Shown here piece after piece: positions 31,107 to 34,386 of a stretch of DNA of 64,000 bases. The notes beneath the pieces were generated by a model. That model did no database searches and had not been told where the DNA came from. It saw only the letters and a list, made by a program, of their open reading frames with translations. Origin of the DNA: a virus. Numbering within the stretch: the stretch's first letter is position 1; each line of letters begins with the position of its first letter. The translations under genes and the position numbers were made by a program. The stretch covers positions 34,217 through 98,216 of the IMG/VR virus record IMGVR_UViG_3300047160_015156. One strand, given 5' to 3'.

Positions 31107-31416
31107 TTATTGCCGGCGAGCCCTCGCCCTCAAGCAAGAGCTCGCGACGTGGCCACCCCAAATCGGAGACATTCTCTCCTACAACTCGGGGTGGCCGGAG
31201 ACGTCGTGGGAGGGTGAGGTGAAGGCGGTCATCGACGACAAAGTCACTGTTGTCCTACAGCGATACGGGTCGGAGGACATGCTCGGTTTCGAGGTTCGTA
31301 CGCGTTACGAGTTCGACACATGGACGCAGTTCCTGGTTTGGGGACGGCAAGGGGTCATCGACCCTACACCGGCGCCGCTGAGGAAGGGGCCGTTGCCCGA
31401 GGAGTTCTTTTTCTGA
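31078..31416 (+). CDS. hypothetical protein
   Basis: ORF fills the gap in the operon. Confidence 0.45.
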   Translation: MSASPSSEPDYCRRALALKQELATWPPQIGDILSYNSGWPETSWEGEVKAVIDDKVTVVLQRYGSEDMLGFEVRTRYEFDTWTQFLVWGRQGVIDPTPAPLRKGPLPEEFFF

Positions 31417-31499
31417 TTCGATGACCGAAACGGCGGCATCTTTGGTTTGTTTTTGAAGCTTCTTCACAACTTCAAAACGAAAGAAAGCTGGGTTCAAAC

Positions 31500-32351
31500 A
31501 TGGGTTTTGGAAAAAAGTCTGCGGAGTCATTCGATTCCAACAAGGTTTACGATCTCGCCGCGAAGGCAATGCGCGAGCGCCGCTCCTCCGTGGTGCGTCT
31601 CGCATTCCGTCTTCACCTTGGCTCGTGTTTGATGAATCACTTCTCGAACAAGGCTATCTGTCAGATGCTCGAGAAGATGGTGGGTATTTCGAAGCCGAAG
31701 GAGCAGAAGGACCTCACGAAGTCCTACCTCGACTCTCACTATCGCAATATCAACGATGACCTCGTTGTTCCTTGTCGCATCATCAAGGCAGCGATCGTCG
31801 AGGGTGCGATCTCGACGGGGAAGGCGGTGTCGAAGGCGGAGTTGAAACGCGATCTTCGCGTCATCGGCTTCACCGCCCCCATCACGCTCCCGAAGGGCGT
31901 CAAGAGCACGACGATGGACGTGCGCTTGGTCCGCAACATGACCGGAGTTCCCGACGTGCGCGCCCGCGCCCTCATTCCCGAGGGCTCCACCGTGGACTTC
32001 GTCGTTCAGTTCCCGACGACACTGTCACCGGACAAGGTCATTGCCGCGCTAGAGGGTGCGGGTCAGTCCATCGGGATCTTCGACTTCCGCCCGGAGAAGG
32101 GCGGTGATCAGGGTACGTTTGAGGTCGAACTCCTCTCCGAGGACAAGATCGACGCTATCGTCCAGTCGTGCATGGCCCCGGAGAAGCCGTATCTGCTTCC
32201 GACCGAGCTCCTCCAGGCCTATAACTCCAACCTCACTGAGAACCAGGAGAAGATGGTGAAGGATCTCAGTGACGCGGAGAAGAAGGCGAAGAGCCTTGTC
32301 GAGCACGTCAACGGTCAGGGGAAGACGAAGCGCTCTCAAGTGGAGGTGTAG
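31500..32351 (+). CDS. solitary Cas7/RAMP-like protein, candidate RNA-guided effector
   Basis: N-terminal strand RLAFRLHLGSCLMNHF, VPCRIIKAAIVEGA helix, VR...PDVRARA thumb, C-terminal Gly-rich loop AGQSIGIFDFRPEKGGDQGTFEV; no cas1/2/3/5/6 in the window. Confidence 0.75.
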   Translation: MGFGKKSAESFDSNKVYDLAAKAMRERRSSVVRLAFRLHLGSCLMNHFSNKAICQMLEKMVGISKPKEQKDLTKSYLDSHYRNINDDLVVPCRIIKAAIVEGAISTGKAVSKAELKRDLRVIGFTAPITLPKGVKSTTMDVRLVRNMTGVPDVRARALIPEGSTVDFVVQFPTTLSPDKVIAALEGAGQSIGIFDFRPEKGGDQGTFEVELLSEDKIDAIVQSCMAPEKPYLLPTELLQAYNSNLTENQEKMVKDLSDAEKKAKSLVEHVNGQGKTKRSQVEV

Positions 32352-32358
32352 GAACTTT

Positions 32359-32405
32359 GGGAGACGCGCGAGGGTCCTAACCCACCCCTCGCGCAAGGTT
32401 CTCCC
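32359..32405 (+). other. leader stem-loop of the pentamer array
   Basis: GGGAGA/TCTCCC outer and GCGCGAGGG/CCCTCGCGC inner inverted repeats. Confidence 0.7.
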
Positions 32406-32413
32406 TCAGTCGA

Positions 32414-32900
32414 GGCATGGCTGGTGAGACATGGAGTGGTTTGCTCAGGCATCGTTCACATCGGTTGGGTACGGCGCGAGTGGTAAGGCAGGCAGCGTAA
32501 GCAAGGGTCCGGTCGTGAAGTGGTCCGGTAAGGTTGGGTAGGTCGTTCAAGGCAGGTGGGGCGCGGTGAGAACTGGCGGGGTCCGGCGGGTCGAGTTCCG
32601 ATCCGGTATGGCAGGCTAGGTTAGGTTTGTCGTGAAGGGGTCCGGTACGGTTGGGTAAGGCAGGCTAGGTATGGCGCGCGACGTCATCGTTGGGTGCGTT
32701 AGGTGCGCCTCGGTAGGTCAAGGCAGGCGCGGTTTGGAATAGGTCCGGTAGTCGAAGGGCACGGTACGTGAAGTCCACGACCGGTGTGGCGAGGCAGGCT
32801 CGGAGGGGCGAATTATTCCCCGGTTCGGCTGCGTAGGGCAAGGACAGGCAACGCAGGCAAGGAACGTTAGGGCAGGGCAAGGCTAGCCCGGCCGGTACGA
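32414..32900 (+). ncRNA. non-coding GGY-NN pentamer array, ~8 units delimited by GGCAGG; putative guide-RNA array
   Basis: GGCAGG at 32487, 32551, 32610, 32659, 32722, 32793 (variant 32852); e.g. GGCA GGCTA GGTTA GGTTT GTCGT GAAGG GGTCC GGTAC GGTTG GGTAA; no + strand ORF in the track. Confidence 0.75.
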
Positions 32901-32915
32901 CAGGAAAGGTGTAAG

Positions 32916-33503
32916 ATGTCAAAGAAAAACGAGAAAACGGAGATCAAGTACGAGGTAAAAGGCTACCTCGCCGAGGATGCGAAAGTCATCGGTGAAGAGC
33001 TTTGCAAGATGGCCAAAGGAGGTGACATCCAAGCCCTGGACAAGCGCGAGGTTTTCGAGACCATACGCGATAATCCTCGTCACCCTCTTCGTCGTTTTTT
33101 CAACTGGGATGAGAGTGAAGCTGCGTACCAGCATTGGATCTCGCAGACGGCGAATCTCATTCGAAGCGTTCGCGTCTTCTACGTTCCCGTGCGTTCCTTC
33201 GAGAAGCAGCTGCCTCCAACCGTGACCAAGCTTGGTCCTGAATACCGACGCGCGAAGCTCGAGAACGGGAACCAGGGCTACGTCAACGTCCAGAATGCGG
33301 CGGCGGCAAAGAACCCGCGTGTTTTCGACTCCATGATCGCACTCCAGGTCAACAGCGTCCGTAACGCCGTCCGTACTCTCACGCAGACGGCCGAGCACAA
33401 GCCGGGGGAGGGGCCTCTTTCGACTCTCATCCGGGAGCTCCAAGTTGCGATCTCGAAGTACGAGGACGCGACCACCACCATCGACGCAGCCGCCGAGGAA
33501 TGA
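32916..33503 (+). CDS. accessory protein of the RAMP/array locus
   Basis: DAKVIGEEL...HPLRRFFNWDESEAAYQHWISQTANLIRSV; RBS AGGAAAGGT at the array end. Confidence 0.7.
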   Translation: MSKKNEKTEIKYEVKGYLAEDAKVIGEELCKMAKGGDIQALDKREVFETIRDNPRHPLRRFFNWDESEAAYQHWISQTANLIRSVRVFYVPVRSFEKQLPPTVTKLGPEYRRAKLENGNQGYVNVQNAAAAKNPRVFDSMIALQVNSVRNAVRTLTQTAEHKPGEGPLSTLIRELQVAISKYEDATTTIDAAAEE

Positions 33504-33515
33504 AGAGAAGAACGA

Positions 33516-33779
33516 ATGAAAGATCTCGAAGTCCTCACCCCACCACCGACCCGCCTCCAAAAGGATTTGGAGAGGGCTCAGAAGGAGCTACAGGAGCTTT
33601 TCACCTGCGTCGCCTGCTCTTCCATCTCCGAACCGGGACAGCTCACGTACGAGGGCTCTGAGCTCCGCCGCTACCTCAGGTGCTTCGAGGAGAAGGCTAT
33701 CGGGACTGGCTCAATCGCATCACGCACACGGCCACGGGGGTTACCGCCGCCACCCACAACGCGGCCATCGAATTGCTGA
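33516..33779 (+). CDS. hypothetical protein
   Basis: ORF in operon. Confidence 0.4.
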   Translation: MKDLEVLTPPPTRLQKDLERAQKELQELFTCVACSSISEPGQLTYEGSELRRYLRCFEEKAIGTGSIASRTRPRGLPPPPTTRPSNC

Positions 33780-33819
33780 ACGTTCTCAACTTCCCACAAG
33801 AGTGGAAGGGTCCTAAGCC

Positions 33820-34386
33820 TTGAAGCCGAAGAAGAAGCCGAAGCCGCAGTACCAGCCGGCAAAAGTCGTACCAGTCCTCGAAGCCGCGATCGCGTATTGG
33901 ACGGGACAGCTCGTCCCCCAGGACAAGCGCGAAGACTTCAGGAACGAGCTCTCGAAGCTCCTCTACCGCGAAGCCGAGAAGGACCCCGCCCTCGTCTTCT
34001 ACGACCACGACGGCCAAGCGGGGCAACCCCTACGCCTCAACGTCGACTACGACCCGCAAGGCATCCTCCTGACCGCGATCAGGAACGTGGGCATCGAGTG
34101 CCAGGGCGTGTTCTTCTCCGCCCAAGGTCTCTTCCCCTATAAGACCAGAACCTACATCCGTGCAGGAAGGTTTTGGGTGAGCGAGGGTTACGGGTCGAAG
34201 CACTTCCAAGTCCACCCCAAGCTCCCATCCCAAACCTCCACCATTCCGGGCCCACGGTCTCTTTGCGACGCCTGCTATGAGCAGGAGCAGATCCAAGCCG
34301 ATAACTGCAGACGGCAGACACGAGGCGAGTGTACATGCCCCCCGGTCATCTGCGAACACGAGCACGCGGCATCTTCGAGGACATGA
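33820..34386 (+). CDS. hypothetical protein
   Basis: LNVDYDPQGILLTA...FPYKT. Confidence 0.6.
   Translation: MKPKKKPKPQYQPAKVVPVLEAAIAYWTGQLVPQDKREDFRNELSKLLYREAEKDPALVFYDHDGQAGQPLRLNVDYDPQGILLTAIRNVGIECQGVFFSAQGLFPYKTRTYIRAGRFWVSEGYGSKHFQVHPKLPSQTSTIPGPRSLCDACYEQEQIQADNCRRQTRGECTCPPVICEHEHAASSRT

What the first reader, a model, noticed from the sequence alone, without database searches (positions are those of the whole stretch)
31433..33503. Candidate CRISPR-independent RNA-guided system: solitary Cas7/RAMP-like gene + GGY-NN pentamer array + accessory gene
Seen: GCGGCATC at 31433, a 283-aa ORF with RAMP-type motifs and a terminal Gly-rich loop (AGQSIGIFDFRPEKGGDQGTFEV), a leader hairpin (32359-32405), ~490 nt of non-coding G-rich DNA with 5-nt periodicity, and a 195-aa ORF whose RBS ends the array. 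No cas1/2/3/5/6 and no repeat-spacer CRISPR are in the window. Established: Cas7/RAMP proteins polymerise along guide RNAs with a fixed nucleotide step. Inference: the protein coats array-derived RNAs at one subunit per pentamer, with constant GGY bound by the protein and variable NN specifying a target, perhaps to silence rival phages or host genes. From memory (verify), this resembles recently reported viral 'VIPR'-type RAMP/GGY-NN systems; standard annotation would miss it entirely.
Basis: partly seen in the sequence, partly recalled or inferred. Interest (0 to 1): 0.97.

Follow-up and report, generated by a model that had tools for sequence, protein, structure and literature searches.

The report
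Phage VIPR guide-RNA silencing locus
This is a real example, in a new 98-kb phage, of the VIPR system described in 2026: a lone Cas7-like protein, an array of five-letter-repeat guide RNAs and an accessory gene. It belongs to a known class, and its targets are still unknown.

Summary

**Protein.** ORF 31500-32351 (283 aa, no Pfam) folds with confidence (pLDDT 89.5) as a Cas7/Csm3-type RAMP (Z 11.9). Its family profile's only significant match (E 8e-4) among PDB sequences is the SUSP1 Vipr protein. hhalign against SUSP1 Vipr gives 96% probability. The G-loop triad that grips GGY (D-W-R in SUSP1) is kept as D195-F196-R197.

**Array.** The 564-nt gap (32352-32915) is the only 5-nt G-periodic stretch in the whole 98,216-bp phage genome. 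It reads as units of one GGCA 4-mer plus 9-13 GGYNN pentamers. Register-anchored counts over 25 related arrays give G 88%, G 77%, Y 85%, then two uninformative positions.

**Context.** In 36 related loci a same-strand array adjoins the homologue in 27, almost all those with enough flank. A homologue of ORF 32916-33503 is present in 29. This accessory protein is unrelated to SUSP1 vap1 and has no clear known fold.

**Limits.**
- There is no Cas1, no CRISPR array and no hammerhead.
- No targets were found: none in the phage itself and no exact match in public collections.
- The array lacks type II tails and fits the published "staggered array" description.

The scan has met VIPR loci many times on other DNA. 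This is a new member of a known kind.

The parts
31433..31440 (+). GCGGCATC motif, a candidate phage promoter element 60 nt upstream of vipr
   Evidence: 30 copies in the window, 29 on the + strand, against 4.8 expected. There is none inside 31441-34365, so vipr, the array and vap may form one transcription unit (inference).
31500..32351 (+). vipr: 283-aa stand-alone RAMP (Cas7-like) protein, P0001
   Evidence: AF2 pLDDT 89.5. Csm3/Cas7 are the top matches: Foldseek E 3e-7 and VIA Z 11.9. The only significant PDB sequence hit (E 8e-4) is the SUSP1 Vipr protein. hhalign against SUSP1 Vipr gives 96.2% probability, E 2e-9, 169 columns. The G-loop triad is D195-F196-R197.
32359..32405 (+). Strong hairpin just after the vipr stop codon and before the array
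   Evidence: Folds at -32.3 kcal/mol, z -2.4. No T-run follows it, so it is not scored as an intrinsic terminator. Its role is unknown.
32414..32486 (+). First array unit (U0), with no leading GGCA; 10 pentamers in register from 32423
   Evidence: Segmentation.
32487..32550 (+). Array unit U1: GGCA plus 60 nt (12 pentamer equivalents, with an internal +1/-1 slip)
   Evidence: GGCAGG anchors are spaced 64 nt apart.
32551..32609 (+). Array unit U2: GGCA plus 11 pentamers, all in register
   Evidence: Anchor spacing is 59 nt.
32610..32658 (+). Array unit U3: GGCA plus 9 pentamers, all in register
   Evidence: Anchor spacing is 49 nt. It contains the only strict YNNGG x4 run in the window.
32659..32721 (+). 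Array unit U4: GGCA plus 59 nt (one internal 4-mer)
   Evidence: Anchor spacing is 63 nt.
32722..32792 (+). Array unit U5: GGCA plus 67 nt (two 6-mers)
   Evidence: Anchor spacing is 71 nt.
32793..32915 (+). Last, less regular part of the array (U6 and remnants). It ends in the vap ribosome-binding site.
   Evidence: Anchors lie at 32793 and 32871, with a GGACAGGC variant at 32842.
32916..33503 (+). Conserved accessory gene (vap-like), 195 aa, P0002
   Evidence: Homologues lie next to vipr in 29 of 36 related loci. Its three database homologues list the same longest-contig lengths as three Vipr homologues. It matches PHROG 15946, of unknown function. It is not homologous to SUSP1 vap1. AF2 pLDDT is 85.5, with no clear PDB fold match.

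Best explanation
The locus is a VIPR (Viral Interference Programmable Repeat) system of a 98-kb tailed phage.

**Proposed mechanism.** The vipr gene, the array and the accessory gene are probably transcribed together on the + strand. The array transcript yields about seven guide RNAs (vrRNAs), each of 9-13 GGYNN pentamers. They are laid head to tail, with a single GGCA 4-mer at each junction that shifts the pentamer register by -1. Vipr protomers polymerise along each vrRNA, one per pentamer. The G-loop (D195-F196-R197) and the thumb arginines (R154/R156) hold the GGY bases away from pairing and present the NN dinucleotides. The concatenated NN then read double-stranded DNA with one skipped base per dinucleotide (NNx). 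The bound filament represses transcription of the target, most likely in a competing phage, satellite or other mobile element. The conserved downstream protein assists in this.

**Shown here.** The RAMP fold, homology to SUSP1 Vipr, the conserved G-loop triad, the GGY/NN composition, the unit grammar, and the conserved three-part module.

**Inferred from the SUSP1 experiments.** Transcription, RNP assembly, the 1-nt-skip DNA reading, and silencing.

**Unknown.** The targets and the role of the accessory protein.
For: **Protein.**
- AF2 model pLDDT 89.5.
- The best structural matches are all Cas7-type RAMPs: Foldseek E 3e-7 and VIA Z 11.9, 156 residues, rmsd 3.7.
- The family profile's only significant hit (E 8e-4) among 177,635 PDB sequences is 'SUSP1 Vipr protein' 36pp_D.
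- hhalign of the family against SUSP1 Vipr gives 96.2% probability, E 2.2e-9, 169 columns.
- SUSP1 residues G174/D177/W178/R179, which bind G1, G2 and Y3 (paper .720927), align to G192/D195/F196/R197. G192 and R197 are invariant in 51 homologues.

**Array.**
- It is the only 5-nt G-periodic region in the genome, and it is strand-specific.
- Anchor-registered pentamers in 82 units from 25 arrays give G .88, G .77, Y .85, then 0.04 and 0.01 bits.
- 87 of 156 GGCAGG spacings are 4 mod 5, with modes at 49, 54, 59 and 64 nt.

**Association.**
- The top periodicity lies next to the homologue, on the same strand, in about 19 of 22 viral loci.
- An array was detected in 27 of 36 loci and a vap homologue in 29 of 36 loci.

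**Context.**
- This is a complete phage genome with TerL, a tail fibre, PolB and DnaB.
- It has no Cas1 and no CRISPR array.
- No guide matches the phage itself under the 1-nt-skip rule, as the paper reports for its own systems.
Against: - No expression or binding data exist for this locus.
- The window's array is more degenerate than those of its relatives. 64 of 104 units are canonical GGY, and units U1, U4, U5 and U6 carry indels.
- There is no conserved 3' tail or pseudoknot as in the characterised type II vrRNAs.
- No target was found. Exact 1-nt-skip scans of IMG/VR for four guides and of GTDB genomes for one guide were empty. A 16-base seed gave only chance-level extensions.
- SUSP1 H17 and K33 have no clear counterpart in the alignment.
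- The accessory protein is unrelated to vap1.
Confidence: 0.9

Rival explanations
1. It is a VIPR-derived locus whose array is decaying. The protein may still bind RNA, but several units no longer make usable guides because register slips and non-GG pentamers break the filament register.
For: Only 64 of 104 segmented units are GGY, and U1, U4, U5 and U6 contain 4-mers or 6-mers. There is only one strict YNNGG x4 run. No targets were found.
Against: - The vipr ORF is intact and keeps the invariant family residues.
- Validated SUSP1 vrRNAs also contain GT- or TG-type degenerate pentamers in register.
- GT is the commonest non-GG start across all the arrays (80 of 768).
- U2 and U3 keep perfect register between anchors.
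- The published pipeline itself notes 'frequently observed internal degeneracy'.
Confidence: 0.06
2. The protein-RNA filament acts on RNA, or has another role such as regulating the phage's own genes, rather than silencing foreign double-stranded DNA.
For: The closest solved CRISPR folds are RNA-targeting type III Csm3/Cmr4. The protein is only distantly related to SUSP1 Vipr (24% identity over the aligned columns), and the accessory gene differs.
Against: No guide matches the phage's own genome above scrambled controls under any skip rule except the array itself. The GGY-holding residues and the pentamer code are the same as in the DNA-binding SUSP1 system.
Confidence: 0.03
3. The G-rich periodic stretch works as DNA rather than as RNA. 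It could be a G-quadruplex-prone region or an iterated binding-site array for the neighbouring proteins.
For: GG every 5 nt on one strand could form two-tetrad quadruplexes (inference). Weak structural likeness of the accessory protein's N-terminal part to iteron-binding Rep/TrfA winged helices (TM 0.31-0.37).
Against: Positions 4-5 carry no information, which is unlike a binding-site array. The orientation is always that of vipr. The composition equals that of RNAs shown to be transcribed and bound in SUSP1. The TM scores are below 0.5.
Confidence: 0.01

Closest known systems
VIPR systems with 'staggered' vrRNA arrays (bioRxiv 10.64898/2026.04.26.720920, fig. S18 legend)
   Same: - A stand-alone Vipr RAMP, one accessory gene and viral context.
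- GGY/NN pentamers, with units laid head to tail and no spacer or tail.
- GGCA|GGC can be read as two pentamers sharing one G, which matches the legend's '1 nt overlapping positions'.
   Different: The figure and the type tables are not held, so identity of architecture and the VIPR type (I-VII) could not be checked. Whether this vap family is one of vap2-6 is unknown.
Type II VIPR of Escherichia phage SUSP1 (Vipr, vap1, four vrRNAs; cryo-EM 36pp/36PK)
   Same: - The Vipr proteins are homologous (hhalign 96%).
- The G-loop D-[W/F]-R-P is shared.
- Both use 9-13 GGYNN repeats per guide, tolerate degenerate GT pentamers and sit in a phage.
   Different: - SUSP1 Vipr is 195 aa. P0001 is 283 aa, with extra N- and C-terminal helices.
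- SUSP1 vrRNAs are separate genes, each ending in a conserved pseudoknot tail. Here there is no tail.
- vap1 is unrelated to P0002.
- The gene order also differs.
Cas7 backbone subunits of class 1 CRISPR effectors (Csm3, Cmr4, Cas7 of Cascade)
   Same: The RRM/RAMP fold with a G-loop and a thumb (Z 9-12). They also polymerise on a guide RNA with a fixed step (established knowledge).
   Different: - The step is 6 nt, on a contiguous spacer.
- They need Cas5, Cas6 or a large subunit, together with CRISPR repeats.
- None of these is present here.
Homologous loci in cultured phages: Gordonia phages Ecliptus, ODay, Pipp and UmaThurman; Pseudomonas phage LESphi2
   Same: P0001 homologues at 28-30% identity. 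Adjacent GGYNN tracts are present, with GGCA punctuation in Ecliptus.
   Different: The proteins are shorter (about 195-210 aa). LESphi2 carries short upstream tracts separated by non-repeat sequence, more like type II. All of them are annotated only as hypothetical proteins.

Membership tests
VIPR system | Vipr protein with a RAMP fold (RRM core, G-loop, thumb) | tested here: met
   The AF2 model has pLDDT 89.5. Csm3, Cmr4 and gRAMP are the top matches, with Z up to 11.9.
VIPR system | Sequence homology to an experimentally characterised Vipr | tested here: met
   The profile's only significant PDB hit (E 8e-4) is SUSP1 Vipr. hhalign gives 96.2% probability, E 2.2e-9.
VIPR system | Residues that hold GGY (SUSP1 D177, W178, R179, thumb R138, H17) | tested here: inconclusive
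   D195-F196-R197 align to D177-W178-R179, and R197 is invariant. The invariant R154/R156 lie within one or two positions of R138. H17 aligns to N46, next to H47, so no clear match. K33 falls in a gap.
VIPR system | Adjacent non-coding array of GGY/NN pentamers, about 9-16 per guide | tested here: met
   Period 4.9. Registered composition is G .79, G .72, Y .73, NN flat in the window, and G .88, G .77, Y .85 in 25 arrays. Units hold 9-13 pentamers.
VIPR system | Minimal locus with no CRISPR array or other cas genes | tested here: met
   There is no Cas1 in the genome, and the controls for that search were positive. There are no tandem arrays. Other cas families were not searched one by one.
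VIPR system | Conserved accessory gene (vap) beside vipr | tested here: met
   P0002 homologues are adjacent in 29 of 36 loci. It is not vap1. Identity with vap2-6 is not testable because no sequences are held.
VIPR system | vrRNAs transcribed, bound by Vipr, and reading dsDNA with a 1-nt skip | not testable with these tools
   This needs RNA-seq, pull-down and binding assays. In silico there is no self-target and no exact external target.
VIPR type II (SUSP1 / P. fulva clade) | Each vrRNA ends in a conserved structured 3' tail (pseudoknot); vap1 accessory | tested here: not met
   Units abut through GGCA only, with no conserved tail (compare SUSP1). vap1 is unrelated.
Ribozyme-interspersed VIPR arrays (types I/V examples) | Hammerhead ribozymes between vrRNAs | tested here: not met
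   An Rfam scan at E <= 10 over 31300-33100 finds no hammerhead.
CRISPR-Cas class 1 effector | Cas7 together with a repeat-spacer array and partner Cas proteins | tested here: not met
   There is no CRISPR-like array and no Cas1. The locus consists of two genes plus the pentamer array.

The most novel reading that the evidence does not exclude
In this clade the GGCA 4-mer itself sets the guide boundaries. A -1 slip in the pentamer register would end one Vipr filament and start the next on a single transcript, so no structured tail, ribozyme or dedicated nuclease is needed. The P0002-family accessory protein, which is unrelated to vap1 and has no recognisable fold, would be a new partner class. 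If neither point is covered by the published type tables, this would be a distinct VIPR variant.
Probability: 0.2. Interest if true: 0.5.

Novelty: new member of a known kind. Interest (0 to 1): 0.3.

Why it matters
VIPR is a very recent class of RNA-guided DNA silencers, proposed as the ancestor of CRISPR RAMPs. Three points give this example some value.

- **Host phage.** It lies in a complete 98-kb phage whose DNA polymerase and terminase, the two proteins compared, are only about 25% identical to any catalogued phage.
- **Clade.** It belongs to a long-form Vipr clade of about 280 aa. The profile search finds 36 cluster representatives at E <= 1e-30 and 2,498 at E <= 1e-3.
- **Array grammar.** The grammar is quantified here as GGCA plus 9-13 pentamers. 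This can be used to annotate guides automatically and to design end-mapping experiments.

It does not change what is known about the class. The scan has met VIPR loci in hundreds of genomes.

Tried and rejected
- The contigs of the closest homologues (74% and 69% identity) could not be fetched, so NN turnover between near relatives was not measured.
- **Locus scans that found nothing.** The genome-contig scan with the family alignment found nothing. So did the first metagenome scan with the single protein.
- **Target search.**
  - No self-target stands above scrambled controls. The skip-3 hits are the array itself.
  - Exact 1-nt-skip patterns for U3, U2, U0 and U6 in IMG/VR gave 0 hits.
  - U2 in GTDB genomes gave 0 hits.
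  - A 16-base U2 seed hit 120 or more viral stretches. The pattern reads like GC-rich Gly/Ala/Pro codons, and extension was at chance: best 20/22, two cases where about 4-5 were expected.
  - No guide matches the related VIPR loci above scrambled controls. The best is U0 at 16/20, p about 0.16.
  - These scans need exact matches, so they do not exclude targets at the 80% level used in the paper.
- **Accessory protein fold.** Foldseek gave nothing at E <= 0.001. VIA matched only the C-terminal helical hairpin, a common arrangement. The Atlas gives viral hypothetical clusters and weak Rep/TrfA-like rows with TM below 0.4.
- **Promoters and terminators.** The sigma-70 promoter and terminator scan of 31200-33700 found nothing useful.
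- **Supplementary tables.** The VIPR paper's supplementary tables are not held, so the VIPR type and whether this family was already listed could not be checked.
Full report
**What is there.** The window is the right 64 kb of a single 98,216-bp virus record rated 100% complete. It encodes a DnaB-like helicase, a family B DNA polymerase, a helicase, an SbcC-like protein, a tail fibre and a large terminase. Its polymerase and terminase are only about 25% identical to anything in the phage collection, so the host is unknown. GC content is 62%.

The finding spans these features:
- a GCGGCATC motif at 31433;
- ORF 31500-32351 (P0001, 283 aa);
- a hairpin at 32359-32405;
- a 564-nt gap;
- ORF 32916-33503 (P0002, 195 aa).

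**Checking the observation.**
- The gap is 41% G, and its G signal peaks at period 4.9.
- It holds the strongest 5-nt G periodicity in the window (7.0 against a median of 0.35).
- It is the only region above threshold on either strand of the whole genome.
- GCGGCATC occurs 30 times (29 on +) against 4.8 expected. It is therefore a genome-wide signal, plausibly a promoter element, and not specific to this locus.
- The next copy downstream is at 34366, which fits co-transcription of vipr, array and accessory gene. This is an inference.
- The hairpin is strong (-32.3 kcal/mol, z -2.4) but has no T-run, and the terminator scan reports no terminator-like site there.

**The protein.**
- P0001 has no Pfam match. 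It matches PHROG 4652, of unknown function.
- The word-index search found 58 homologues, all 'hypothetical'.
- With 51 of them as the alignment, AlphaFold2 gives pLDDT 89.5 and pTM 0.81.
- Foldseek against the PDB lists Csm3 and other Cas7 proteins first (E 3e-7).
- An independent all-against-all structural search gives Csm3 at Z 11.9, followed by Cmr4, gRAMP/Cas7-11 and type IV and I Cas7 proteins.
- By sequence, the family profile has one significant hit (E 8e-4) in the whole PDB, named 'SUSP1 Vipr protein'.
- I located phage SUSP1 in the phage collection. hhalign of the family against its Vipr gives 96.2% probability, E 2.2e-9, over 169 columns.
- The cryo-EM paper names D177, W178 and R179 of the G-loop, R138 of the thumb and H17 as the GGY contacts. 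In the alignment G174-x-x-D177-W178-R179-P corresponds to G192-I-F-D195-F196-R197-P. G192 and R197 are invariant in the family, and the family consensus has W at 196.
- The invariant R154 and R156 lie within one or two positions of R138. H17 and K33 have no clear counterpart.
- P0001 is about 90 residues longer than SUSP1 Vipr, with extra helices at both ends.
- A full HMMER search finds 2,498 cluster representatives at E <= 1e-3 but only 36 at E <= 1e-30. The long form is therefore a small clade of a large family.

**The array.**
- Splitting at GG runs, followed by a register-aware segmentation, shows units that begin with GGCA followed by GGC. The anchors lie at 32487, 32551, 32610, 32659, 32722 and 32793, spaced 64, 59, 49, 63 and 71 nt apart.
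- A spacing of 5k+4 means one 4-mer plus k pentamers.
- The same grammar holds in relatives. Over 27 arrays, 87 of 156 anchor spacings are 4 mod 5 (20% expected), with modes at 54, 59, 49 and 64 nt.
- To avoid circularity I took only units with 5k+4 spacing, cut pentamers from the anchor, and left out the first one. Over 768 pentamers from 25 arrays the composition is G .88, G .77 (T .13), C+T .85 (G .02), then 0.04 and 0.01 bits at positions 4 and 5. In the window's three clean units it is G .79, G .72, Y .73, then flat. This is the published GGY/NN code.
- The commonest departure is GT-Y. GT pentamers also occur in register inside the validated SUSP1 guides.
- Around the anchors the register runs cleanly on both sides, with a -1 slip at GGCA. 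The consensus is GGY-A-W | GGCA | GGC.
- There is no conserved tail, no hammerhead and no other Rfam family.
- This fits the paper's description of 'staggered arrays' in which neighbouring vrRNAs overlap by 1 nt: GGCAG and GGCNN share one G. The figure itself is not held, so this match rests on the legend only.

**Conservation of the module.**
- I fetched 22 viral and 14 metagenomic loci that encode homologues.
- In about 19 of the 22 viral loci the strongest 5-nt G periodicity of the roughly 8-kb locus lies beside the gene and on its strand.
- With all 36 loci, 27 show an array. Those without one are, with three exceptions (L006, L022, L027), cut off close to the gene.
- P0002 homologues are adjacent in 29 of 36 loci. 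The order is either vipr-array-vap, as here, or vipr-vap-array.
- The three database homologues of P0002 list the same longest-contig lengths as three Vipr homologues, which suggests shared contigs.
- Cultured phages carry the same module. In Gordonia phage Ecliptus the array fills the unannotated gap after gene 19. In Gordonia phage Pipp the array lies under an annotated 'hypothetical protein' (gene 43). Pseudomonas phage LESphi2 has short tracts upstream of its homologue.

**The accessory protein.**
- It has no Pfam match and matches PHROG 15946.
- Its family shares a motif around residues 55-85, of the form F-x-W-D-x-x-x-A-A.
- The AF2 model has pLDDT 85.5 and pTM 0.46.
- Foldseek and VIA give no informative match. 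Only the C-terminal helical hairpin aligns, and that is a common arrangement.
- The Atlas places it among viral hypothetical clusters, with weak Rep3/TrfA-like rows (TM 0.31-0.37), which are leads only.
- It is not homologous to SUSP1 vap1.
- In SUSP1 both Vipr and Vap1 are needed to fend off a satellite, so a helper role is the reasonable inference here.

**Targets.**
- I applied the published rule, in which the NN dinucleotides are read with one skipped base.
- No guide matches the phage's own genome above scrambled controls. This is what the paper reports for its own systems.
- Exact scans of IMG/VR for U0, U2, U3 and U6, and of GTDB genomes for U2, found nothing.
- A 16-base seed of U2 gave 120 or more hits, but only chance-level extension.
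- Related VIPR loci are not targeted above chance.
- These scans need exact matches, so the targets remain unknown rather than absent.

**Verdict.** The locus is a member of the VIPR class, described in three 2026 preprints: 10.64898/2026.04.26.720920, 10.64898/2026.04.26.720927 and 10.64898/2026.10.15.759431. It is not type II, because it has no tails and no vap1. It matches the 'staggered array' description. The type could not be assigned, because the paper's tables are not held. Earlier notes of this scan report VIPR loci in at least 285 genomes, so it is a new member of a known kind.

Noticed in passing
window, 30 sites including 31433, 34366 and 36371: GCGGCATC occurs 30 times, 29 of them on the + strand, against 4.8 expected. 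It is probably a phage-specific promoter element. None lies between vipr and the gene after the accessory gene.
   Followed up: partly
L158:2051-2320 (Gordonia phage Pipp, MN234179.1 33093-33362): The annotated CDS 'gene 43, hypothetical protein' coincides with the strongest 5-nt G-periodic stretch right after the Vipr homologue (gene 42). It is probably a pentamer guide array mis-called as a gene.
   Followed up: partly
L018:4700-5790: A very regular array of about 18 units in a 112-kb viral contig. Each unit ends in the constant GGCAATCAC followed by GGCA. The spacings of 53 or 58 nt imply two 4-mers per unit, a tidier variant of the same grammar.
   Followed up: partly
L001:4821-5069: A small ORF (82 aa) lies between the Vipr homologue and its array. 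Its N-terminus looks like a ribbon-helix-helix DNA-binding protein by eye. This could be an extra regulator in that locus.
   Followed up: no
L160:900-1375 (Pseudomonas phage LESphi2, OQ594955.1): The Vipr homologue of this P. aeruginosa LES prophage sits near the CI repressor gene. Three short GGYNN tracts separated by non-repeat sequence lie upstream of it, an architecture more like type II.
   Followed up: no
window 33516-33779: A small ORF (87 aa) starts 13 nt after the accessory gene's stop and contains a C-x-x-C motif. It may belong to the same transcription unit.
   Followed up: no
window 32512-32563 and 32629-32680: Two array units share a 52-nt near-duplicate (75% identity). Within the best-conserved 30 nt, the substitutions fall at NN positions. 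This fits new guides arising by duplication followed by change at the coding positions.
   Followed up: partly
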